From the NCBI GenBank assembly GCA_024280475.1, contig JAJRQA010000183.1, forward strand, positions 1 to 42,621: a stretch of 42,621 nt of DNA, read 5' to 3'. A program made the position numbers and the translations under genes. The stretch comes from Alphaproteobacteria bacterium (GTDB lineage Bacteria; Pseudomonadota; Alphaproteobacteria; Rhizobiales; JAKIUO01). The notes under the pieces are model-generated. The model was not told where the DNA came from and made no database searches. It saw only the letters and a program-made list of their open reading frames with translations. This document shows, one piece after another, positions 11,361-41,367 of this stretch. How positions within the stretch are numbered: position 1 is the first letter of the stretch; the number at the start of each line of letters is the position of its first letter.

Positions 11361-11458
11361 TTCTTTGTCCTACCGCTTGCGCGATAAGAAGACTCTGTAC
11401 CTGTCCTACCGCTTTCGCTGGATGAGGACTTTATACCTGTCCTGTATCTTTCCAGAAC
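11361..11458. repeat. about three tandem ~36-bp direct repeats (consensus ..TACCTGTCCTACCGCTTtCGC..) in the leader of the TraB/GumN gene
   Basis: Self-comparison shows tgtcctaccgctt at 11366 and 11403 and tgtcct at 11438, and (c)t(c/t)t(g/a)tacctgtcct at 11395 and 11431. Confidence 0.6.
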
Positions 11459-20335: not shown

Positions 20336-20622
20336 GACTGCGTGAGATTTTCACCAATATCATTGATGAAAGCAAGAAACAGTTTTTTTGGTAGTCAATT
20401 GTTAATTAAACCTCACTAAGAACTATTTAAAGGCGAATGATGTTTTCTTCGTTCTGCAGGTGCGATTTGCAGTCGAATATTGATGCGTCAGAAAAAATAA
20501 TAATAAAAATTCGTATTGCGTTCCCAAAATACATGAACCAGATACACCATCACTGGATGGTATTTTTGTAGATGCTGTGCTGTGAAATAATCATGTGCGG
20601 CAACCGGACCCGGGGAAACGAC

Positions 20623-22596
20623 ATGCAAGAAAATCTCATCGAAAAATTTGATGCCTATCTGTTTGATAGCGGCAAAAACTTCCAACCGAACGAGAAATTA
20701 TGGAAAGTCTGTGAGCCAATTATCAAATCCTTGATGGATGATTTTTATCGCAATATTCTATCGGTAGATGAGCTGCGATCCATTATTGGTGGTGAATCGC
20801 GGTTTGACGGGCTGAAATCGGCACAGCTCAATCATTGGAAAATGATGCTTGCGGGAAGTCTTGATGAAAATTTCCAGGAAAATTCCGTGAAGATCGGCGA
20901 AATTCACGAGCGCATTGGTCTTGATCAAGGCTGGTATATGGCTTCATATGCTTGGATCTTGATGCGGTTGCTGCCGCAGGTTGCTGCGAAATATCGTTTC
21001 TCATCGTCGCGCATGAAGGCCTATATACAGCAGATCATCGCACGCATGACGATCGATATCATGATCTCCACATCAGCCTATGAAAAAAAGTCGATGATCA
21101 ATGCTATTGGCTTGCACGAGGGAGATGCTGACACAAAGAACCTGCGCTCGCTGGCAGAAACCGTCGTTAAAGTGAACGCTACATCGTTTCGTCTTGCAAG
21201 ACTTGTTGGTAATGCCAAGGAAGCCAAACTTGGGTCACAGACCATTTCATCGGCAGCTTCACAGCTTGTGGCCTCTGTCGAGCAGATTTCTGTAAGCAGC
21301 GAAAGCGCCGCGAACGAAGCCAATGAAAGCAATCAAACCGCTCAAGAGGGCCATACGGCGATCAATGAAGCGACAAAAGCTATTCAAAATATGCTGACCG
21401 CGGTTCACGAGACCCATGAAGGCATTGAAGTTTTAAGCGAAGCGTCGAGCGAAATCGGCCAGATTTTGACTGCTATTGAGGACATTGCTGACCAGACCAA
21501 CCTGTTGGCCCTGAACGCCACGATCGAAGCTGCGCGAGCGGGGGAAGCTGGCAAGGGGTTTGCTGTTGTCGCCTCTGAAGTAAAGAGCCTGGCCAGTCAG
21601 ACATCGAAATCAACCGAAGATATTGCCCGCAAGATTGCGGCGCTGAATTCTGGTATGGAGAAAATACGCTCTACCATGATTTCGTCCCAAAGCGCGGTAA
21701 GCGAAGGTGAAACGGCCGTCGCCAGCGCCCGCGAAACAATGGATCAGATTTCTGGTCAGGTGGGCGGCGTCTATGAAAAAATGCTCGATATCTCAAATAT
21801 TTTACAAGAGCAAAAAGGCGCAACAAACGAGATTGCGCAAAGCATTGTCAATGTCGCCAATCTGTCAGCCCAGAATGAAGAACTGATCGAAGAGATGGCG
21901 GACAGCTATCAAACCACCAATGACGAATTCATGTCATCGGCCCAAAACTGGTTCAATGAAGGGTCTGATCAAGCTCTTTGCGAGATGGCGAAAATCGATC
22001 ATGTTTTGTTTAAGAAACGTGTTCTGGATACGGTCATGGATCGCGGAGATTGGAAAAGCGACGAAGTCCCTGATCATCATTCCTGCCGCCTTGGCAAATG
22101 GTATGATGCCTTGACTAACAGCAAATTGGTCAATCACCCCAGTTATAAAGCATTGGTGGAACCACATATGATTGTCCATGCTGCCGGTAAACAGGCGCTG
22201 GTCAACCATGCTGCAAATGATTTTGACGCAACCATAGCCGAAGTAGACCGCATGAATGAGGCGAGCCTTGATGTCGTGCGTTTGCTGGGGGAGTTGTCTG
22301 AGTCCCTTGATGCGGAGCAAGAAGCTGAGAACCAACGCCAATTTGACCGGCTGACCACGAGGATGAGTGCCAAACTTGATAGTGGCACCGTGGCAGGTCA
22401 GGAAATCACCATAGAAGATATGTCTAAAGGCGGCGTTGGCATTCGGGGCGCAAGTTTGCAACCTGGCCAGGAGGTCAGTATTTCTGTCGGTAATGATGGG
22501 CCAAGAGATGGTGTCACGAGATGGGTCGCAGGCGATCGCGCCGGTATCCAGTTTGAAGACACCAATGCCGAACCGGCGCGAAAAAAAGCCGGTTGA
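20623..22596 (+). CDS. soluble globin-coupled chemoreceptor: HemAT-type globin sensor, MCP signalling domain, CZB zinc-binding domain and C-terminal PilZ domain
   Basis: N-term residues ~30-170 align by eye to the HemAT globin ([23 protein letters not shown] against HemAT IASIHLRIGLLPKWYMGAF, proximal His). The highly conserved MCP hairpin is [31 protein letters not shown]. The CZB motif is [10 protein letters not shown]...H. The C-terminus has PilZ motifs RLTTR (RxxxR) and DMSKGGVGI (DxSxGG). There is no TM helix. I chose the start at MQENL (20623, GGGGAA SD). Confidence 0.8.
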
Positions 22597-24512: not shown

Positions 24513-24644
24513 TTCATTAATCCGTTTTTGGATAAATGGTATAATTTGAATAATCTTATTTCTCGATCACATTTATGTTATCTTGACCGGTACGCTGGCA
24601 TTGGTGTGCGAACATAAAGATACTAAAAAGAGAGGGAGAAACAA

Positions 24645-24950
24645 ATGCTTGAACAAATTATTGCAATGGCTGGTCCATTGCTCGCCGGAGGCGCCGGGGG
24701 GCTTTTGGGTGGTAATGTTACGGGAGCAATGTTCCGTAACGCCGGCATGGGGCGTGGGTCCAGTTCGATGGTTGGCATTATTGCCGGTGCCATCGCTTCT
24801 TATTTCCTTGGCCCAACCATGGGTCCGATTGTTGGTGGTCTCGTTGGTGGCGGCGGACTAGAAGCTATTATTGGCGGTGGCCTGGCTGGACTTGGCGGCG
24901 GTGCTGCTGGTGGTCTGCTGATGGGCATCTTGAAAAAGATGATGGGCTAA
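24645..24950 (+). CDS. glycine-rich small membrane protein (glycine-zipper-like)
   Basis: The 101-aa protein is ~40% Gly, with repeated GxxxG/GG motifs in hydrophobic stretches. It has a very strong SD (GAGGGAGA, 7 nt upstream) after an AT-rich promoter-like tract. Confidence 0.6.
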   Translation: MLEQIIAMAGPLLAGGAGGLLGGNVTGAMFRNAGMGRGSSSMVGIIAGAIASYFLGPTMGPIVGGLVGGGGLEAIIGGGLAGLGGGAAGGLLMGILKKMMG

Positions 24951-25010
24951 CTGGATTTACAAATCCTGATAGATTAAATAGTGCGGCTTGTGAAAAGCTG
25001 CGCTATTTTT

Positions 25011-26150
25011 TTATGCCTCGTCCTTTTTATCCAGCGTCAGCAGTCCACTCAACAGAGCATCAAAGCCCCCTTTGTCACCCGTATGCAGATCAATGCGGCC
25101 GACTTTTTCGGTGAGTTTTTCCAGCGATTCAATTTCCTTGAGGCGCAGGAGCAGGGGGTTGTTTTCCATCAGTTTGGCGGTGTTGAGCAAGGCACGTGTG
25201 GCAGCGGTTTCTTCGCGTCGTTTGATGAGATTGGCCTGAGCGGTTTTTTCAGCCTCTACAACCTTGTTGATGAGCTCGCGCATATCGCCGGGCAGGATAA
25301 TATCCTTGATCCCCAGTTCTGTGACCTTGACGCCGATATCTTCCATATGCTCGCTCACATATGTGCGAAGCTGACTATCGATGGTCTCGCGATTATTGAG
25401 TATTTCATCAAGGGTGCGATTGGCAATGGCCTCGCGCACTGCAAACTGAACCAGCCGGTAAATATAGGTGGTGAAATCTCCAGAAGACTGTTCCACCTTC
25501 AAAGGGTCAGTGACCTGCGCAAAGGCAGTGAGGGTGACGCGCAGGGAGACGCGGTCGCGTGTGAGGATTTCCTGAGCCGTGATCTCGATGGGTTGAGGGC
25601 GCAGGTCATAGCGGCGCACGTCAATCGTGCGGTGTACCTGCCAAAAGGCGTGGCGACCTGGCTTTAATACCTCAATAAACTTGCCATCGACAAACAGCAA
25701 GCCAGCGTCAAATGGGCCAACAAGAAACTCTCCCACCAGCTTGGTGTCATTGGGATCAATCGCGTTGAGATGTTTTTGGGTAACAGCATAAGTTTCTTTG
25801 GTTTCGATAAACTCGGTCGTAACCTCGTTCAATACCTTCCAGAAATAGCGGGTTTTCCAGGGGCCGATGAGATGAACCGGGCGGCCATCGAACGAGACTA
25901 TGGCGACCTCCCCTTCGCCGACACTGACAATCTCGAACAGGCGGGCGGCCAGTTCCGGGCGGTTTTTCTCGATGACCCTTGCCCAGTTGCTGGTTATCTC
26001 GGCGTCCTTGATCGAAAATTTTTCTACCTTCAGCCTGCCAAAATCGAGATTGATGAAGCGATGGCGGCCCGGCTCCAAAATGCGCTCGAACTTACCATCC
26101 TTGATGAGTAAACCACGCTCGTCCTCATTGATCGTTACAAACCGGATCAT
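25011..26150 (-). CDS. SPFH/Band-7 (slipin/stomatin-like) domain protein with duplicated N-terminal beta-domain
   Basis: The 379-aa protein has two N-terminal repeats, LLIKDGKFERILEPGRHRF and LLFVDGKFIEVLKPGRHAFW. An SPFH core follows (residues ~170-330, IDVRRYDLRPQ...RLVQFAVREAI). An AGGAGAG SD is present. Confidence 0.75.
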   Translation of the reverse strand: MIRFVTINEDERGLLIKDGKFERILEPGRHRFINLDFGRLKVEKFSIKDAEITSNWARVIEKNRPELAARLFEIVSVGEGEVAIVSFDGRPVHLIGPWKTRYFWKVLNEVTTEFIETKETYAVTQKHLNAIDPNDTKLVGEFLVGPFDAGLLFVDGKFIEVLKPGRHAFWQVHRTIDVRRYDLRPQPIEITAQEILTRDRVSLRVTLTAFAQVTDPLKVEQSSGDFTTYIYRLVQFAVREAIANRTLDEILNNRETIDSQLRTYVSEHMEDIGVKVTELGIKDIILPGDMRELINKVVEAEKTAQANLIKRREETAATRALLNTAKLMENNPLLLRLKEIESLEKLTEKVGRIDLHTGDKGGFDALLSGLLTLDKKDEA

Positions 26151-26518
26151 CTGCTCACTCTCCTAAAGCACTGTGGAACTAGCCTGTCTTTGTAGATAGA
26201 GGGAGTGGCGAAAAAAGGGAAGGGGAGAAGCCAAAGGTCGCTGGAGAAAAGTGCAACGCGAATGGTACGGACGCTGGTTTGAGGTGTTGGTTCTGATCCG
26301 TTATTGGAGCCGCATAGGTCCAGCCGTGGCTGGTATTTGCGAACTTCCGCTGCAAGATCTTCGCCAGAACCGGTATCCACCAGTGTACAAGGTGTCAAAC
26401 GGGCCTGCCCGTTCTTTACGCATCCAGCGCGAGCCTTTTGCATCAAGTCCGGGCGTGAACATTTCCTCCAGCTTCCCATAATTTAAATCGCTTTTAAACG
26501 ATTGGCTTAAAGGGCCAT

Positions 26519-26603
26519 TGGTTAGATAGAAGGAATCGAACCTTCAAGGTCTTGCGACCACACGATCATGGATCATGTTGCGTTACCATTTCGCCATATC
26601 CAA
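26519..26603 (-). tRNA. tRNA-like gene, type II (long variable arm), Leu-like D-arm, anticodon loop UCCAUGA (nominal anticodon CAU); identity unclear, possibly a pseudogene
   Basis: Hand-folding of the minus strand gives acceptor UUGGAUA/UAUCUAA (7 bp including G-U) and D-arm GCG-AAAUGGUAA-CGC. The anticodon stem is CAUGA/UCGUG with loop UCCAUGA. The variable stem is GGUC-GCAA-GACC, the T-arm is GAAGG-UUCGAUU-CCUUC, and the 3' end is ...C-CA. C33 and a CAU anticodon in a type II body are atypical. Confidence 0.4.
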
Positions 26604-26610
26604 AGTCTCG

Positions 26611-26662
26611 AGCTCTTCCACTGAGCTATATCTGTTGCCAGATAGCGGGGATCGAACCCGCG
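26611..26662 (-). other. tRNA half-fragments in permuted order: a 3' half (T-arm GCGGG-UUCGAUC-CCCGC plus acceptor UAUCUGG-C) directly followed by a 5' half (ACAGAUA-UA-GCUC-AGUGGAA-GAGC, Thr-like D-arm)
   Basis: The reverse complement of 26611-26670 reads CUCGUGGUCGCGGGUUCGAUCCCCGCUAUCUGGCAACAGAUAUAGCUCAGUGGAAGAGCU. The two halves would pair with each other (6/7 acceptor base pairs) but are arranged 3'-then-5'. Confidence 0.45.
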
Positions 26663-26793
26663 ACCACGAGATTGCTGGTTGCAATCAACATTGGCATACG
26701 TTGTCCGCAAAGCGGCACGCACCGGCCGGGTCTCATGAGCCCGCACCAAAATGTCAATTACGCCATAAGAATAGGGGAGAACAGGGCTGGTTG

Positions 26794-28128
26794 CTAGCCC
26801 TCTTTCTTGTCATCCCCACTGTCATCTCCATCGGTAGTTGCTCCGCCGATAAGAGCGGCCGCTTCTTTGGCGGCATCCATGGTGCTTTGTGTCAGGTTCC
26901 CTGCCGTCTCGGCGACACCGGTAACCGCGCTGCTCGCAGCATCTTTAGCCCCGCCAGCGACAACTCCGGCCGCGCCCGCCACAGCGGCTGCGGCAACTCC
27001 TGCCATATCAGTTGCTCCGCTCGCCACGTCTCCAGTAGTCTCTGCGGCGCTCGACGCAGCGCTTCCCGCCACATCAACCGCTTTTTCAGCCATGTCTCCG
27101 GCAACAGATGCGGTGGCTTTGGCGGCGTCCATTGCGCCCCCTGCCATATCACCAGCGGTATCGGCGGCACTTGACGCAGCGCTTCCCGCTACATCGACCG
27201 CTTTTCCGGCCACGTCTCCGGCAACAGATGCGGTGGCTTTGGCGGCGTCCATTGCGCCCCCTGCCATATCACCAGCGGTATCGGCGGCGCTTGATGCCGC
27301 GCTTCCCGCTACATCGACCGCTTTTCCGGCCACGTCTCCGGCAACAGATGCGGTGGCTTTTGCGGCGTCCATTGCGCCCCCTGCCATATCACCAGCGGTA
27401 TCGGCGGCGCTTGCCGCCGCGCTTCCCGCTACATCGACCGCTTTTTCAGCCATGTCTCCGGCAACGGATGCTGTGGCCTTTGCGGCATCCACCGCGCCTC
27501 CAGCAACATCTCCAGCGGCGCTGGCGACCGATGCGGCGCCTTTGGCTCCCGCAACGACAGCAGCACCGGTGAGAGCGGCTGCTCCCCCCGCGACCGTCGC
27601 GGCGGATTTAAGATTGGATATGAGACTTTTTTCCCGGCGGGTACTGATACCAACACTGATCAGCAGCACGATCATCACCAGGGCGAACAGATTGATGCCA
27701 AGGCTCATAACTGTGGGATCACCTCCCCCTATCATCAGATCAAATTGGCTTTCCGGCGCTCCTAGTGGCGCTCCGTTGGTTGGAAAGCCAAAACCGCCCG
27801 CCAGCATATCCATAGCAAAGGCCATGCTGCCAAAGGCGTAGACTTTATAAGTGAGAAAGGCGGTGACGATGGCCGGTAATTGTAGCAGCCAAAATATGAC
27901 ATTTGCTATAGTTGATCCGGCGCGCCGCTCCAGCAGCCAAAAACTGCACATGATGCCATACAGGAAGAACAATCCCCCAAGAAGGGTCAAAAACAGCTCG
28001 AAATAGCTACCTCCCCCAGCGTTCAAATTACCAAAATTAGTGGTGACCACTGATAGACCGTAGACTGATCCAACCATTGCCACGATTGCCAATATTCTGC
28101 GAAGCCAAGTCTGCATTGTGCTCTCCAT
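26794..28128 (-). CDS. membrane-anchored Ala/Gly/Asp-rich tandem-repeat protein (novel)
   Basis: The N-terminal ~170 aa carry 4 predicted TM helices. About 260 aa of near-identical 40-aa repeats follow (AGDMAGGAMDAAKATASVAGDVAGKAVDVAGSAASSAADT), built from a 20-aa half-repeat, with an acidic C-terminal tail (DGDDSGDDKKEG). The start at ATG 28128 or 28116 is ambiguous, and the frame reaches a TTG at 28137. Confidence 0.65.
   Translation of the reverse strand: MESTMQTWLRRILAIVAMVGSVYGLSVVTTNFGNLNAGGGSYFELFLTLLGGLFFLYGIMCSFWLLERRAGSTIANVIFWLLQLPAIVTAFLTYKVYAFGSMAFAMDMLAGGFGFPTNGAPLGAPESQFDLMIGGGDPTVMSLGINLFALVMIVLLISVGISTRREKSLISNLKSAATVAGGAAALTGAAVVAGAKGAASVASAAGDVAGGAVDAAKATASVAGDMAEKAVDVAGSAAASAADTAGDMAGGAMDAAKATASVAGDVAGKAVDVAGSAASSAADTAGDMAGGAMDAAKATASVAGDVAGKAVDVAGSAASSAADTAGDMAGGAMDAAKATASVAGDMAEKAVDVAGSAASSAAETTGDVASGATDMAGVAAAAVAGAAGVVAGGAKDAASSAVTGVAETAGNLTQSTMDAAKEAAALIGGATTDGDDSGDDKKEG
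27092..27480. repeat. tandem 120-bp DNA repeats (about 3.3 copies, ~97-99% identical) inside the repeat-protein CDS
   Basis: catgtctccggcaacagatgcggtggctttggcggcgtccattgcgccccctgccatatcaccagcggtatcggcggc... recurs at 27092, 27212 and 27332. Confidence 0.85.
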
Positions 28129-34034: not shown

Positions 34035-34119
34035 GAATGGGTTTGCCTGCCTAGCAATCTGTGCCTGATCGCGCGAGAGCGTGTTCCTGTTGGATTATCC
34101 TGGCGAGGATGGTCTGGAT

Positions 34120-35139
34120 CTATGGCACCTTGTTTTGTTTGCGCCAGAGCTGCGCTTTGGTTTGTGCCAATTGTCTTTGTTCTTTTTTGAGGCGGGCGAT
34201 TTTAATATCGAGAGGCAGATCCGAGACGCCCCGCTGGCGTGCCAGCAGGTGCCATTTTGCAGCTTCCACAACGTCTTTTTTGAACACCAGCCCATGTGCA
34301 TAGAGTTTGGCAACGCGGTTCTGGGCGATAGGATTGCCTTTTTGCGCGGCGCGCAAGAGCAAATCGGCCCCTTGCTTTTGGTCTTTTGCAACGCCTTTGC
34401 CTTGATAAAGCATCAAACCATATTCGAGTTCGGCAACGCTCAATCCAGCATTTGCGGCGAGCCCCATCCAGTGAGCGGCCTTGGCGGCGTCACGCTTGAC
34501 CCCAGACCCGGCCTGAAAAAGGCTGGCCAGATCATACTGGGCGCGCGCTTCATTTTGATTGGCAGCTTTTTGCAGCCAGAAAAAAGACTTTGTCATATCG
34601 ATCGGGCGACCGGTTCCTGCTGCGTGAACAAGTCCCAGATTATATTGCGCCAGGGCATGCCCCTGGGTGGCGGCTACCTCAAACAGATCCGCTGCCTGTT
34701 TGATGTCGCGTTTGACCCCATATCCCCCTGCGAGCTGCAAGGCGAGCGCGAACTGGGCATCTTGATCTCCATGTTCAGCGCCTCCCGCATACCACTGCGC
34801 GGCTGTTGTGAGATCTTTTTTAACCCCCAGACCTCCGGCATAAATGCGCCCGATCAGGGTAAAGGCTTGCGGTTCGCCTTTTTTGGACTGCGCCTTCGCC
34901 AATTTGAGGGCTTTTAAATACTGGCCTTTTCGAAAAGCTGCATAGGCAGGGTCGGCGCTGGTGGTTTCAATGCTTTGTGTTTTGGGAGCAATTTGCGCTG
35001 GTGAGCTGCTGGAACCAAGTCGTTCTTGTTGTTTGGAAGTGCTCTGTGCGTTTGCCGGTAATGCGCCAATAGCCAGCACTGTCAATATGAGCGGCGACAA
35101 AACTCGCACCGATCGATTGTTTGTGTTTCGATTGATCAC
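34120..35139 (-). CDS. Sel1-repeat (TPR-like) periplasmic protein
   Basis: It has a signal peptide (…ALPANA-QS) and about seven Sel1-like 36-aa repeats (A..W(Y/F)..AA.QG...AQ..LG..Y..G.GV..D). The GTG start has a GAGGTG SD. Confidence 0.7.
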   Translation of the reverse strand: MINRNTNNRSVRVLSPLILTVLAIGALPANAQSTSKQQERLGSSSSPAQIAPKTQSIETTSADPAYAAFRKGQYLKALKLAKAQSKKGEPQAFTLIGRIYAGGLGVKKDLTTAAQWYAGGAEHGDQDAQFALALQLAGGYGVKRDIKQAADLFEVAATQGHALAQYNLGLVHAAGTGRPIDMTKSFFWLQKAANQNEARAQYDLASLFQAGSGVKRDAAKAAHWMGLAANAGLSVAELEYGLMLYQGKGVAKDQKQGADLLLRAAQKGNPIAQNRVAKLYAHGLVFKKDVVEAAKWHLLARQRGVSDLPLDIKIARLKKEQRQLAQTKAQLWRKQNKVP

Positions 35140-40470: not shown

Positions 40471-41367
40471 TCAATCAACAAGCTTCATGATGTCGCCCAT
40501 CAATTGGCTGAATCCGTCATAGGCTTTCAGATAGCTGCTTAATTCTTGCCCAAGTGTTTGCAGGCGGGCTTTTTCCATGGGACCTTTGGTGCCCGACTTC
40601 ATCAGATCTATGAGTTCTTCCATTTGGCCTTGTGCGGTCATGTCGGGTTTTTGCTGTGCCATGAACTCTCGCCATTGCTCCATGACAGGCAAATAGTTGG
40701 TATAATCAATGATCTGCTGATCGAACTTGATGTCACCGGTGTGATCGTGGGTACCTTGTACGATCTCTGTTGAGGCAATAGCGACATTGACATCTGATGA
40801 ACCGGAAATGATCGTCTCGGCCTGCACCGGATCGACATACGGGTCGATTTTTTCAATGACCGCCGTTTCAATAGGAGCCCCCATCTTGTTGAGCGTGGCA
40901 ATATTGAGTTTTTCAATTTTGCCAGTGTTGAAATCGATGGTGTAGTTGCCAGTGCTGGCCTTGTTTTCAATGCGCTCGTCGAGGATTTTTTTGATTGATG
41001 CAAGTTTCGAGACATCAGTATTGAAAAACAGGGTTCGCACGCCATCATTTGTCGAAATCACCAGATAGTGTTTCAAAACAGGAATGAGCGAAAGGCCGAC
41101 AACGACAAGACCAACGATGATCATCGTCAAATCATTTAGGCCCCCACCACCATAAAGAGCACTTTGTATCAAGAGACCATAGGCAGCGATAAACCCGCCA
41201 ATCATACGAATGTAGAATTTTATCACTGTATATGGGTCGTATCGAACAATGGAAATCGTTGAAATATTTTCAATCGAAATCGTTCTATTTTCTGTTTTGA
41301 AGGTGAAATCTCTTATTTCGAGTTCAGTATATTCCTCAGAAAGATTATCTAGCTTGGAATTGGACAT
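40471..41367 (-). CDS. hypothetical membrane protein (two TM helices, low-GC N-terminal half)
   Basis: The 298-aa protein has a soluble ~60-aa N-terminus, two TM helices (IGGFIAAYGLLIQSALYGGGG / MIIVGLVVVGLSLIPVL) and a ~190-aa C-terminal domain. Local GC is ~35-48% against ~52% in the flanks. Confidence 0.5.
   Translation of the reverse strand: MSNSKLDNLSEEYTELEIRDFTFKTENRTISIENISTISIVRYDPYTVIKFYIRMIGGFIAAYGLLIQSALYGGGGLNDLTMIIVGLVVVGLSLIPVLKHYLVISTNDGVRTLFFNTDVSKLASIKKILDERIENKASTGNYTIDFNTGKIEKLNIATLNKMGAPIETAVIEKIDPYVDPVQAETIISGSSDVNVAIASTEIVQGTHDHTGDIKFDQQIIDYTNYLPVMEQWREFMAQQKPDMTAQGQMEELIDLMKSGTKGPMEKARLQTLGQELSSYLKAYDGFSQLMGDIMKLVD

What the first reader, a model, noticed from the sequence alone, without database searches (positions are those of the whole stretch)
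26794..28128. Membrane-anchored protein made of near-identical 40-aa Ala/Gly/Asp repeats encoded by 120-bp DNA tandem repeats
A 4-TM N-terminal domain is followed by about 6.5 copies of AGDMAGGAMDAAKATASVAGDVAGKAVDVAGSAASSAADT, which is itself a duplicated 20-mer, and an acidic tail. At the DNA level the 120-bp units are 97-99% identical, which implies recent expansion or ongoing concerted evolution, and copy number is probably variable between strains. The periodic A-x-D-x-A-G pattern resembles amphipathic-helix repeat proteins such as LEA-like or phasin/apolipoprotein-like proteins, but tethered to the membrane. I know of no characterised family with this architecture. The opposite strand carries a 344-aa Ala/Pro/Ser-rich ORF over the same repeats, so the coding strand should be verified.
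Basis: seen in the sequence. Interest (0 to 1): 0.68.

Follow-up and report, generated by a model that had tools for sequence, protein, structure and literature searches.

The report
Membrane-tethered giant acidic amphipathic helix protein
This is a real minus-strand gene, found only in a small group of uncultured deep-sea Hyphomicrobiales, that joins an unnamed membrane domain to Ala/Gly/Asp tandem repeats spelling one very long, weakly hydrophobic, acidic amphipathic helix; it resembles perilipin-4, alpha-synuclein and LEA proteins in design but not in ancestry, and its function is unknown.

Summary
The gene is real and is coded on the minus strand (26794..28116, 440 aa). There are 4 clear 40-aa/120-bp units, not 6.5. 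Their DNA identity is 83-97%, not 97-99%. The unit is 18+22 residues, not a duplicated 20-mer.

The N-terminal 165 aa belong to an unnamed family of small stand-alone membrane proteins (291 clusters; no Pfam, NCBIfam or PDB match). AlphaFold (pLDDT 91) models it as helices plus a six-stranded sheet, not a plain 4-TM bundle.

Only about a dozen orthologs carry the C-terminal extension. All are uncultured Hyphomicrobiales, and all sit divergently next to trpS. Repeat unit length and copy number differ between them (40 aa x2.5-7, 51 x3, 33 x3, 29/58, 11/22). Every version keeps one coherent hydrophobic periodicity of 3.60-3.67 residues per turn. Asp lines the centre of the polar face, Lys flanks it, and the other face is Ala/Val/Met. 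The hydrophobic moment (0.25) equals perilipin-4's.

Units resemble each other more within a genome than between genomes, which indicates concerted evolution. The plus-strand ORF is a compositional shadow.

My best reading is a membrane-tethered, probably cytoplasmic, conditionally folding giant amphipathic helix. Function and topology are inferred, not shown.

The parts
26794..28116 (-). Coding sequence, 440 aa (MQTWLRR...DDKKEG, stop at 26794-26796). In-frame alternative starts at 28128 (ATG) and 28137 (TTG) are probably not used.
   Evidence: ORF list. All 9 database homologs and 5 genomic orthologs start at MQTW/MNKW/MKTW.
28123..28126 (-). GGAG Shine-Dalgarno-like motif 6 nt upstream of the ATG at 28116
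   Evidence: Read directly from the sequence
27622..28116 (-). N-terminal membrane domain (aa 1-165), a member of an unnamed family of mostly stand-alone 145-170-aa proteins. Invariant residues are G16, Q79 and N142; nearly invariant are R7, G20, G54, G58, P81, G140 and A145.
   Evidence: Profile search of 1.84 billion representatives found 291 clusters at E<=1e-3 and 43 at E<=1e-10. Alignment A4. AF2 pLDDT 91, pTM 0.84.
27931..28110 (-). Helices H1 (aa 3-33) and H2 (aa 38-62), a transmembrane hairpin with a 2-4-residue outer loop
   Evidence: AF2; hydropathy
27691..27915 (-). Short helix H3 (aa 68-79, carrying the FW..Q.P motif) followed by six predicted beta-strands (aa 81-142). This region is poor in Lys/Arg and is inferred to lie at or beyond the outer leaflet.
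   Evidence: AF2. Lys/Arg counts over 124 family members.
27577..27690 (-). Helix H4 (aa 143-180): the last transmembrane helix (aa 139-158) continuing into the basic juxtamembrane stretch TRREKSLISNLKS
   Evidence: AF2; hydropathy
27526..27600 (-). Conserved Ala/Gly-rich segment (aa 173-197, ATVAGGAAALTGAAVVAGAKGAASV). It is the best-conserved part of the extension (A, G, G, A, G, A, K, A invariant among orthologs) and has marginal hydrophobicity.
   Evidence: Alignment A1. Hessa-scale sum +3.5 kcal/mol.
27037..27516 (-). Four tandem 120-bp / 40-aa units (aa 201-360). Each is 18+22 residues, equal to 11 helical turns.
   Evidence: TRF; pairwise identity 83-97%; shift analysis; coordinates
26848..27036 (-). 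Degenerate repeat-like region (aa 361-423), including the conserved C-terminal motif VAETAGNLTQSTMDAAKEAAALIGG
26797..26847 (-). Acidic tail (aa 424-440, GGATTDGDDSGDDKKEG). It is longer and more acidic in L001 and L003.
26807..27841 (+). Antisense 344-aa Ala/Pro/Ser-rich ORF. It is a compositional shadow, not a gene.
   Evidence: It is open only over the repeat region in all six orthologs and broken over the N-domain. Its third codon positions coincide with those of the sense frame.

Best explanation
The gene encodes an inner-membrane protein made of two modules.

Module 1 (aa 1-165) is a compact membrane domain of an unnamed, fairly widespread family that normally exists as a stand-alone protein of about 160 aa.

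Module 2 (aa ~170-440) is a lineage-specific extension found only in a small clade of uncultured marine or hydrothermal Hyphomicrobiales. It is built from Ala/Gly/Asp/Val/Ser/Lys tandem repeats. Together these encode one continuous amphipathic helix with 3.64 residues per turn (40 residues = 11 turns).
- One face, about 190 degrees wide, is Ala with Val/Met and carries almost no bulky residues.
- The other face carries a central stripe of five Asp per unit, flanked by one Lys on each side and edged with Gly/Ser. This is a class-A-like charge layout.
- Net charge is -3 per unit and -19 over the whole extension.

I infer that the extension is cytoplasmic. I also infer that it is largely unfolded on its own (15% Gly, AF2 pLDDT 50-77). 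It would become helical when its Ala/Val face adsorbs along a polar-apolar interface. The most likely interface is the cytoplasmic face of the membrane it is tethered to, or an intracellular hydrophobic inclusion. Binding strength and covered area would then scale with repeat number, as in the 'Velcro' behaviour shown for perilipin-4.

The array grows and shrinks by unequal recombination or slippage between 120-bp units and is homogenised within each genome. Selection tolerates only unit lengths that keep the helix in phase.

Shown here: gene reality and strand, family relations, repeat anatomy, periodicity and its conservation, concerted evolution, and synteny. Inferred: topology, disorder-to-helix behaviour, the binding partner and the physiological role.
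For: Real gene, minus strand:
- 9 homologs in 5.8 billion proteins and 5 genomic orthologs.
- Conserved N-domain and conserved start.
- Strict synteny next to trpS in 7 loci.
- Distant stand-alone relatives of the N-domain.
- High-confidence AF2 model.

Continuous amphipathic helix:
- The hydrophobic-moment spectrum peaks at 98-100 degrees in the window, in the other orthologs tested (the four genomic loci and P0001-P0009, with some overlap between these sets) and in the unrelated repeat protein P0010. Only 0-2 of 200 shuffles reach the observed peak.
- AF2 predicts helices aa 143-180, 185-239, 245-357 and 367-427.

Phase preservation:
- Dominant self-periods are 40, 51, 33, 29/58, 11/22 and 18. 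All are sums of 11 and 7 and correspond to whole numbers of turns at 3.64 residues per turn.

Class-A-like layout and weak hydrophobicity:
- Wheel at 99 degrees: Asp at 153-198 degrees, Lys at 108 and 216 degrees.
- muH 0.250 sustained over 160 aa, mean hydrophobicity 0.16, 5% large hydrophobic residues.
- The same script gives 0.297 for alpha-synuclein 1-89. The published Heliquest values are 0.30 for alpha-synuclein and 0.257 for perilipin-4 (PMC5889406, Table 1).
- Weak profile similarity of the repeat region to alpha-synuclein residues 5-98 (E 0.006-0.02) and to designed helical repeat proteins.
- P0010's analogous repeats give sub-threshold Pfam hits to Apolipoprotein, Phasin_2, DUF948 and ApoLp-III.

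Cytoplasmic location:
- Positive-inside pattern over 124 family members. The N-terminus has 2.55 K/R in about 8 aa, loop 2-3 has 1.6, the beta region is sparse, and the stretch after H4 is basic.
- P0010 carries the same kind of repeats N-terminal to a single TM and a peptidoglycan-binding OmpA domain. That places its repeats in the cytoplasm (inference).

Concerted evolution:
- Units are 83-97% (window), 89-95% (L001, units 2-7; its divergent first unit is 82-89%) and 87-89% (L002, units 1-3) identical within a genome, against 72-86% between genomes for the same units.

Fast evolution:
- Neighbouring genes are mostly 80-99% identical in amino acids, while this protein is 46-73% identical.
Against: - No experimental or expression data exist for any member.
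- The net negative charge argues against simple adsorption to an anionic bacterial membrane. In perilipin-4, changing the net charge per 33-mer from +1 to -1 abolished lipid-droplet binding unless hydrophobicity was raised (PMC5889406).
- The same straight amphipathic stripe would equally suit helix-helix bundling.
- Topology is not secure. The conserved Ala/Gly segment aa 173-191 has marginal insertion energy (+3.5, against +2.5 for the accepted third hydrophobic segment). If it spans the membrane, the repeats are periplasmic.
- AF2 confidence in the extension is only 50-77.
- The genomic context gives no functional hint, either here (housekeeping genes) or for distant N-domain homologs.
Confidence: 0.4

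Rival explanations
1. The extension is a self-associating structural element. The Ala/Val faces of several chains, or of hairpinned segments of one chain, pack into a straight (about 3.63 residues per turn) Ala-cored helical bundle or sheet of helices. This would form a cytoplasmic stalk, or a lattice under the membrane, organised by an oligomeric N-domain.
For: - The periodicity of 40/11 = 3.636 is that of an undistorted helix. The apolar stripe therefore runs straight, as non-supercoiled bundles require (coiled-coil periodicity rules are my own knowledge).
- AF2 predicts very long helices with breaks at aa 181-184, 240-244 and 358-366.
- The best PDB sequence-profile hits include designed helical repeat proteins and helical bundles.
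- Acidic helices repel anionic lipids.
Against: - 15% Gly and only 5% large hydrophobic residues are atypical of stable coiled-coil cores.
- AF2 confidence is low (50-77) and the predicted helix breaks do not follow the repeat register.
- A uniform -3 charge per unit, with all Asp in one stripe, would cause strong repulsion between parallel chains unless cations bridge them.
Confidence: 0.2
2. The extension works as a disordered polyanion. It would be a membrane-tethered acidic brush that buffers or concentrates divalent or metal cations, or excludes macromolecules from the membrane surface. On this reading the helical periodicity is secondary.
For: - Composition is A 35%, G 15%, D 10%, S 9%, with net charge -19 over 280 aa.
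- The tail is acidic and is expanded to poly-(D/G/N/E) in L001 and L003.
- Sequence turnover is fast.
- AF2 confidence is low.
- Relatives come from metal-rich hydrothermal chimney material (PMC9769843).
Against: - A pure brush does not explain why every ortholog keeps a coherent 3.6-3.67 hydrophobic periodicity.
- It does not explain why unit lengths are restricted to phase-preserving values.
- It does not explain why the Asp align in a single stripe flanked by Lys.
Confidence: 0.15
3. The repeats are periplasmic. The conserved Ala/Gly segment aa 173-191 would be a fifth transmembrane helix, and the acidic helical repeats would form a TolA-domain-II-like spacer or tether in the cell envelope.
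For: - The segment is invariant in key positions among orthologs.
- Its summed insertion energy (+3.5) is not far from that of the accepted third hydrophobic segment (+2.5).
- It is preceded by four Lys/Arg and followed by an acidic domain. That fits an in-to-out helix under the positive-inside rule.
Against: - Ala/Gly-rich segments rarely insert on their own.
- AF2 does not model the segment as a separate helix packed on the domain.
- The stand-alone family members end right after H4 with basic tails, so that end is cytoplasmic.
- The analogous repeats of P0010 are on the cytoplasmic side of its TM.
Confidence: 0.12
4. The extension is a near-neutral low-complexity expansion with no function of its own. 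Slippage-prone 120-bp repeats would simply be tolerated at the C-terminus of a functional membrane domain.
For: - Most family members lack any extension.
- Copy number and unit sequence vary widely.
- The protein evolves much faster than its neighbours.
Against: - The extension is retained in all orthologs down to 46% identity.
- Non-repeat elements on both sides of the array are conserved.
- Periodicity is conserved through complete turnover of the unit sequence.
- Within the array, 56 synonymous against 20 non-synonymous codon differences indicate purifying selection on one of the two mirrored frames.
Confidence: 0.1
5. The plus-strand 344-aa Ala/Pro/Ser-rich ORF (26807..27841) is the real gene, or a second gene.
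For: It is open in the window and over the repeat region of all orthologs. Synonymous/non-synonymous counts inside the repeats are as good as for the minus frame (48:21).
Against: - Its openness follows automatically from the sense composition. Stops in that frame require sense TAN or CAN codons, and the repeats contain no Tyr, His or Gln.
- It ends where the repeats end and is broken by 2-8 stops across the gene in every ortholog.
- It has no homolog-supported start.
- The minus frame continues into a domain with 291 homologous clusters and a confident fold.
Confidence: 0.01

Closest known systems
Perilipin-4 giant amphipathic helix (human PLIN4, 29 tandem 33-mers; Copic et al. 2018, PMC5889406)
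   Same: - Very long tandem array of near-identical units whose length is a whole number of helical turns in 11/3-type geometry.
- Apolar face of small residues with almost no bulky hydrophobics.
- Hydrophobic moment 0.25 here against 0.257 published.
- High Gly content, with predicted disorder-to-helix behaviour.
- Array length as the tunable parameter.
   Different: - No sequence homology detected, and no PAT domain or four-helix bundle.
- Unit is 40 aa (18+22), not 33, in the window. One ortholog lineage (P0006/L004) does use 33.
- Net charge is -3 per unit instead of +1.
- It is permanently tethered to a membrane domain rather than soluble.
- It is bacterial.
Alpha-synuclein N-terminal 11-mer repeat region (residues 1-95)
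   Same: 11/3-type amphipathic periodicity, an Ala/Val/Gly-rich apolar face, and conditional folding on membranes. It is the only natural protein recovered by the PDB sequence-profile search (E 0.006-0.02, residues 5-98).
   Different: - The hits are marginal and driven by composition and periodicity.
- There is no KTKEGV motif and no Pfam Synuclein match.
- Alpha-synuclein is Lys-rich at the interface and binds anionic vesicles, whereas this protein is acidic.
Group 3 LEA proteins (Pfam LEA_4), for example mitochondrial LEAM (comparison from my own knowledge)
   Same: Tandem 11-mer-based repeats forming class-A-like amphipathic helices, with a negative stripe flanked by positive residues and an Ala/Thr-rich apolar stripe. 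They are disordered until they meet an interface or lose water, and they protect membranes.
   Different: There is no LEA_4 HMM match even at E<=10. This protein has far fewer Lys/Glu, is membrane-tethered, and is not known to be stress-induced.
Exchangeable apolipoproteins (ApoA-I/A-IV/E, Pfam PF01442; class A amphipathic helices)
   Same: Class-A charge distribution, 11/22-residue periodicity, and net acidic helices that coat a lipid surface. The analogous repeats of P0010 give a sub-threshold Apolipoprotein hit (E 9e-5, 22.7 bits against a cutoff of 90).
   Different: The window protein itself gives no hit. It has no Pro punctuation between helices, a much less hydrophobic apolar face, and a bacterial membrane anchor.
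Unnamed family of small (145-170 aa) bacterial membrane proteins recovered with the N-domain profile (P0011-P0154)
   Same: Full-length match to the N-domain (profile positions 1-147; E 5e-17 to 1e-3). They share the motifs W.RR, GGG..G, G(I/V)..G..L.E, FW..Q.P and G(I/V)N(L/V).A, with invariant G16, Q79 and N142.
   Different: They lack the repeat extension. Some carry an N-terminal soluble extension instead. They share no conserved gene neighbourhood. No name, Pfam or NCBIfam model, or solved structure exists for them.
P0010-type OmpA-domain protein with N-terminal Ala/Gly/Asp/Lys repeats
   Same: The same kind of repeat (..VAGDAVDAAKGAAS..) with the same 99-degree periodicity (spectral power 26.3, 0 of 200 shuffles reach it), placed next to a membrane anchor.
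   Different: The anchor is unrelated: a single TM plus a periplasmic OmpA/PF00691 domain. The repeats are N-terminal and carry more Lys. Similarity is confined to the repeats (E 1e-5), so convergence or module sharing cannot be told apart.

Membership tests
Unnamed small membrane protein family (N-domain) | Full-length profile match to the ~155-position domain, with invariant G16, Q79 and N142 | tested here: met
   A profile built from the orthologs retrieves 291 clusters at E<=1e-3, most covering positions 1-147. Invariant columns are in A4.
Unnamed small membrane protein family (N-domain) | Shared fold | tested here: inconclusive
   A single AF2 model built on the joint alignment has pLDDT 91. 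Distant members were not modelled separately. No PDB counterpart was found, and AFDB was not available.
LEA group 3 (Pfam LEA_4, PF02987) | Match to the LEA_4 11-mer HMM | tested here: not met
   No Pfam hit for the whole protein (E<=0.01) or for the extension alone (E<=10).
LEA group 3 (Pfam LEA_4, PF02987) | 11-residue-based amphipathic periodicity with a class-A charge layout | tested here: met
   Peak at 99 degrees with 0 of 200 shuffles reaching it. Asp are central and Lys flanking on the wheel.
Apolipoprotein A1/A4/E (PF01442) | HMM match above the gathering score | tested here: not met
   No hit for the window protein. There is only a sub-threshold hit for the unrelated P0010 (22.7 bits against 90).
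Apolipoprotein A1/A4/E (PF01442) | 22-mer/11-mer helices punctuated by proline | tested here: not met
   The composition count of the 280-aa C-terminal region (aa 161-440) lists no Pro.
Alpha-synuclein (PF01387) | KTKEGV-type 11-mer repeats and an HMM match | tested here: not met
   No Pfam hit. Only marginal PDB-profile E-values of 0.006-0.02. A single-sequence search of the repeats against PDB found nothing.
Perilipin-4-type giant amphipathic helix | Long uninterrupted tandem array in 3-11 helical phase, with a weak hydrophobic moment and no bulky residues | tested here: met
   muH 0.250 over 160 aa, 5% large hydrophobic residues, and a coherent phase over 265 aa, against the published 0.257.
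Perilipin-4-type giant amphipathic helix | Net positive charge per repeat (needed for lipid-droplet binding) and homology to perilipins (PAT domain, four-helix bundle) | tested here: not met
   Net charge is -3 per unit. There are no perilipin Pfam hits. The charge requirement comes from PMC5889406.
Perilipin-4-type giant amphipathic helix | Unfolded in solution, helical on a lipid or oil surface | not testable with these tools
   Needs CD and flotation assays on purified protein.
Phasins / YtxH / DUF948 / DUF883 (bacterial helical granule- or membrane-associated proteins) | HMM match | tested here: not met
   No hits for the window protein. Phasin_2 and DUF948 appear only below threshold for P0010.
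Anti-phage defence or phage proteins | Match to PADLOC or PHROGs models | tested here: not met
   No hits for the protein or for six relatives.

The most novel reading that the evidence does not exclude
This would be a prokaryotic, permanently membrane-tethered counterpart of the eukaryotic giant 3-11 amphipathic helices (perilipin-4, alpha-synuclein, LEA), evolved independently. Its repeat number would set how much of a membrane or inclusion surface is coated. Its unit length would be free to change (40, 51, 33, 29, 11 aa) only in steps that keep the helix in phase. It is grafted onto a previously undescribed alpha/beta membrane fold, which itself defines a new family of about 290 clusters.
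Probability: 0.25. Interest if true: 0.65.

Novelty: new variant of a known kind. Interest (0 to 1): 0.45.

Why it matters
If the reading is right, it matters in three ways.

- **Convergent design.** Bacteria would have arrived independently at the 'long, weak, repetitive amphipathic helix' solution known from perilipins, synucleins, apolipoproteins and LEA proteins. Here it has an acidic charge and a fixed membrane tether. That would give a simple natural system for asking how helix length, charge and phase control interface binding.

- **Constraint on repeat evolution.** The orthologs form a natural experiment. Unit sequence and length turn over completely while helical phase is kept. This is a clean example of structural constraint acting on repeat evolution.

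- **An undescribed membrane domain.** The N-terminal domain is a confident, apparently undescribed membrane fold. It is shared by several hundred protein clusters that have no annotation at all.

None of this bears on a long-standing open question, and no function is demonstrated.

Tried and rejected
- **Library scans.** Pfam, NCBIfam, PADLOC and PHROGs scans of the protein, of its extension alone (E<=10) and of distant N-domain relatives gave nothing usable.
- **PDB by sequence.** The N-domain gave nothing. The repeats as a single sequence gave nothing. The whole-protein profile gave only marginal hits to alpha-synuclein and designed helical repeats.
- **Repeat-only protein search.** It returned just one ortholog. 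The word index and bias filter handle this composition poorly, so the spread of such repeats in other architectures remains unknown.
- **Codon-position and synonymous/non-synonymous tests for the coding strand.** Rejected as uninformative, because the antisense frame shares wobble positions. Synonymous codon usage is also equal in the two frames.
- **Guilt by association.** Neighbours here are housekeeping genes (trpS, murJ, SPFH, tadE-like, gshB). Distant homologs have unrelated neighbourhoods.
- **SPFH/NfeD-type pairing with the downstream Band-7 gene.** Rejected. RNA genes lie between the two, and L002 and L012 lack the SPFH gene at that position.
- **Antifreeze or ice-binding Ala-rich helix.** Considered and dropped, because the domain is probably cytoplasmic and the habitat does not freeze.
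- **Promoter and terminator scan.** No sigma-70-like promoter was found, and terminator-like sites were at background level.
- **Exact-sequence look-ups.** The target protein is not in the collection, and the contig record could not be retrieved.
Full report
**1. What is in the sequence**

A minus-strand ORF runs from 28137 (TTG) or 28128 (ATG) to the stop at 26794-26796. All homologs begin at the residues encoded from the ATG at 28116 (MQTWLRR...), and a GGAG lies 6 nt upstream of it. I therefore take the CDS as 26794..28116, 440 aa, and number residues from there.

Tandem Repeats Finder reports one array at 27044-27518: period 120, 4.0 copies, 92% matches. Cutting the CDS into 40-codon units gives four clear units (aa 201-360; 27037-27516).
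- Their pairwise DNA identity is 83-97%.
- Only the two middle units reach 97%.
- The flanking 40-residue blocks are 33-52% identical.

6.5 is the number of 40-residue lengths in the whole Ala/Gly-rich region, not the number of recognisable units.

The unit is also not a duplicated 20-mer. Self-identity at shift 20 is 0.057. It is 0.44 at shift 18, 0.41 at shift 22 and 0.39 at shift 11, against a shuffle mean of 0.20. So 40 = 18 + 22. The acidic residues are spaced mainly 7, 11 and 4 apart (7, 11, 7, 11, 4 in the two middle units; the Glu of the first and last units adds 3/4 spacings).

The window is a complete 42,621-bp NCBI contig. I take it to be a metagenome-assembled contig, so the copy number of near-identical units may be under-assembled.

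**2. Which strand codes**

Third codon positions carry 63 of the 80 differences between units in the minus frame. However, the plus-strand ORF 26807..27841 is in the antisense frame whose third positions coincide with those of the sense frame. Synonymous versus non-synonymous codon differences are therefore 56:20 for minus and 48:21 for plus, and synonymous codon usage is equal. These tests do not discriminate.

That antisense frame is open over the repeats in all six orthologs. This follows from composition. A stop in that frame needs a sense TAN or CAN codon, and the repeats have no Tyr, His or Gln.

Other evidence decides the question:
- The minus ORF continues upstream into a 165-aa domain that is conserved in every ortholog.
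- That domain has 291 homologous clusters elsewhere.
- It folds with pLDDT 91.
- Across the whole gene the antisense frame is interrupted by 2-8 stops.

The minus strand is the coding strand.

**3. Relatives and context**

A search of 5.8 billion proteins found nine homologs with 44-64% identity. All have the same N-domain and a variable Ala/Gly/Asp-rich C-terminus. One further hit matched the repeats only (P0010, an OmpA-domain protein).

One genome per species in GTDB gave five loci. All are uncultured MAGs labelled Alphaproteobacteria, Hyphomicrobiaceae or Hyphomicrobiales. Two come from sample 'Dive100', a diffuse hydrothermal vent chimney on the Southwest Indian Ridge (PMC9769843). The closest locus, L001, is about 86% identical in DNA, so it is a different species.

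In seven loci the gene lies divergently next to trpS, beyond which come two TadE-like genes, UPF0102 and gshB. The downstream side varies: SPFH, DUF1801 or murJ. Most neighbouring proteins are 80-99% identical between these genomes, while this protein is 46-73% identical. It is a stable chromosomal gene that evolves fast. The rest of the window is ordinary alphaproteobacterial housekeeping.

**4. The N-terminal domain**

A profile of the first ~155 positions, run against 1.84 billion cluster representatives, found 291 clusters at E<=1e-3 (43 at E<=1e-10). Apart from the six orthologs, these are nearly all 145-170-aa proteins matched end to end. A few have an N-terminal soluble extension.
- None has a Pfam or NCBIfam model or a name other than 'hypothetical protein'.
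- Their neighbourhoods share nothing.
- G16, Q79 and N142 are invariant across 124 aligned members. R7, G20, G54, G58, P81, G140 and A145 are nearly invariant.

AlphaFold2 on this alignment gives pLDDT 91 and pTM 0.84. The model has helices at aa 3-33, 38-62 and 68-79, six beta-strands between aa 81 and 142, and a helix at aa 143-170. This is not a simple four-helix bundle.

Lys/Arg counts over the 124 members fit an N-in/C-in topology:
- 2.55 Lys/Arg in the roughly 8 N-terminal residues.
- 0.06 in the H1-H2 loop.
- 1.6 in the H2-H3 loop.
- A sparse beta region.
- A basic stretch after H4.

This would put the extension in the cytoplasm. That is an inference. The conserved Ala/Gly segment aa 173-191 has a marginal summed insertion energy (+3.5, against +2.5 for the third hydrophobic segment). 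If it spans the membrane, the repeats would be periplasmic.

**5. The extension**

Composition of aa 161-440 is A 35%, G 15%, D 10%, V 10%, S 9%, T 6% and K 5%, with net charge -19. AlphaFold2 predicts it as almost entirely helical (aa 143-180, 185-239, 245-357, 367-427) at pLDDT 50-77. That range is typical of conditionally folding regions.

The hydrophobicity spectrum has a single dominant peak at 99 degrees (3.636 residues per turn; 40 residues = 11 turns), coherent over 265 residues. 0 of 200 shuffles reach it.

On a 99-degree wheel the residues sort as follows:
- The five Asp of a unit cluster at 153-198 degrees.
- The two Lys sit at 108 and 216 degrees.
- Gly and Ser occupy the edges.
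- The remaining ~190 degrees is Ala with Val, Met and Thr.

This is the class-A arrangement known from apolipoproteins and LEA proteins (my own knowledge).

With the Heliquest scale, muH is 0.250 over 160 residues, mean hydrophobicity is 0.16, and large hydrophobic residues make up 5%. The same script gives 0.297 for alpha-synuclein 1-89. Published values are 0.30 for alpha-synuclein and 0.257 for perilipin-4 (PMC5889406, Table 1).

**6. Comparison of orthologs**

Copy number and unit length differ between orthologs:
- 40 aa x 7 in L001 (570 aa).
- 40 aa x about 3.5 in L002.
- 40 aa x 4 in the window.
- 40 aa x about 2.5 in P0001.
- 51 aa (40 + 11) x 3 in L003.
- 33 aa x 3 in P0006/L004.
- 29/58 aa in P0002/L005.
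- 11/22/33 aa in P0003.

Every one of these lengths is a sum of 11s and 7s and equals a whole number of turns at 3.64 residues per turn. Every ortholog, and also P0010, shows the same spectral peak at 98-100 degrees, with 0-2 of 200 shuffles reaching it. The unit sequence has turned over but the helical phase has not. This is the strongest evidence that a long uninterrupted amphipathic helix is the selected feature.

Units are more alike within a genome than between genomes. Within-genome identity is 83-97% (window), 89-95% (L001, units 2-7) and 87-89% (L002, units 1-3). Between-genome identity for the same units is 72-86%. Strain-level variation could not be tested.

**7. How it most likely works**

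Shown: a two-module membrane protein whose second module is a phase-locked, weakly hydrophobic, acidic amphipathic helix of variable length.

Inferred: the helix is cytoplasmic. It is unfolded alone and folds when its Ala/Val face lies along a polar-apolar interface. That interface would be the inner face of its own membrane or a hydrophobic inclusion. Avidity would be set by repeat number, as shown experimentally for perilipin-4 (PMC5889406).

The main difficulty is charge. In perilipin-4, reversing the net charge to -1 per repeat abolished binding unless hydrophobicity was increased, and this protein carries -3 per unit. Divalent cations, zwitterionic or cationic lipids, or a non-lipid surface would be needed.

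The rivals are listed below with rough confidences:
- A straight Ala-cored helical bundle or lattice (0.2).
- A tethered polyanionic brush or cation buffer (0.15).
- A periplasmic TolA-like spacer, if aa 173-191 is a TM (0.12).
- A tolerated neutral expansion (0.1).
- The plus-strand ORF being real (0.01).

**8. Relation to known families**

In how it probably works, it is closest to the 11-mer/3-11 amphipathic repeat proteins: perilipin-4, alpha-synuclein, group 3 LEA proteins and exchangeable apolipoproteins.

It is not a member of any of them:
- No Pfam model matches, even at E<=10 on the extension alone.
- The alpha-synuclein similarity is marginal (E 0.006-0.02) and disappears with a single-sequence query.
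- There is no Pro punctuation, no KTKEGV motif, no PAT domain, and the charge is opposite.

The only membership that holds is of the N-domain in an unnamed family.

I rate it as a new variant of a known kind: a giant amphipathic-helix repeat protein on an undescribed membrane anchor. It is moderately interesting, but no function is demonstrated.

Noticed in passing
window 26605-26735 (-), about 60-190 nt downstream of the target's stop: A conserved tRNA-mimic resembling the tRNA-like module of bacterial Y RNAs. It gives a partial Rfam YrlA match (36-40 bits against a gathering score of 69; E 3e-6 to 1e-7 in local searches). The parts are a T-arm (GCGGGTTCGATCCCCGC), an acceptor-like hairpin, a D-arm and a closing stem. 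Compensatory changes occur in the hairpin and the closing stem across window, L001 and L005. No Ro60/TROVE gene is in the 42-kb window.
   Followed up: partly
window 26521-26603 (-): An odd 83-nt tRNA-like gene immediately 3' of the Y-RNA-like module. It has a long variable arm and scores 37-43 bits on the Rfam tRNA model. The anticodon is CAU in the window and L001 but CAC in L005, so it may not be an ordinary decoding tRNA.
   Followed up: partly
window ~24513-26793 compared with L002 11134-11156 and L012: The segment carrying the SPFH/Band-7 gene, the tRNA-like gene and the Y-RNA-like element is missing in L002, where murJ follows the target after 22 bp. In L012 it is replaced by other genes. 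It is therefore an indel-prone spot in an otherwise syntenic region.
   Followed up: partly
window 20572-22596 (+): A chemoreceptor with an unusual domain string: Protoglobin sensor, MCP signalling domain, CZB zinc-binding domain and a C-terminal PilZ domain.
   Followed up: no
proteins P0028, P0049, P0104, P0031 (distant N-domain relatives): A subset of the small membrane protein family carries a conserved N-terminal soluble extension of about 70-90 aa with the motif PDY..YSLEQL..ARR.ID.ERFPER. It has no Pfam match.
   Followed up: no
protein P0010: An unrelated 503-aa protein has about 230 aa of the same kind of Ala/Gly/Asp/Lys repeats, with an even stronger 99-degree periodicity. These are followed by one TM and a periplasmic OmpA domain. 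This type of repeat may therefore be a recurrent cytoplasmic membrane-proximal module.
   Followed up: partly
window 34081-34917 (+) versus 34120-35139 (-): The long plus-strand ORF here is another antisense shadow. The real gene is the minus-strand Sel1-repeat protein (Pfam Sel1 E 5e-36). The locus is among the least conserved in the syntenic block, at 33-74% amino-acid identity measured on the shadow (plus-strand) frame.
   Followed up: yes
window 11366-11443: An intergenic 36-bp tandem repeat, 2.2 copies, 80% matches.
   Followed up: no
window 40471-41367 (-): A 298-aa protein whose first ~127 aa match DUF6232, a small membrane-protein family. It is followed by a ~170-aa extension with no Pfam match. 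This is another case in this contig of a small membrane domain with a lineage-specific tail.
   Followed up: no
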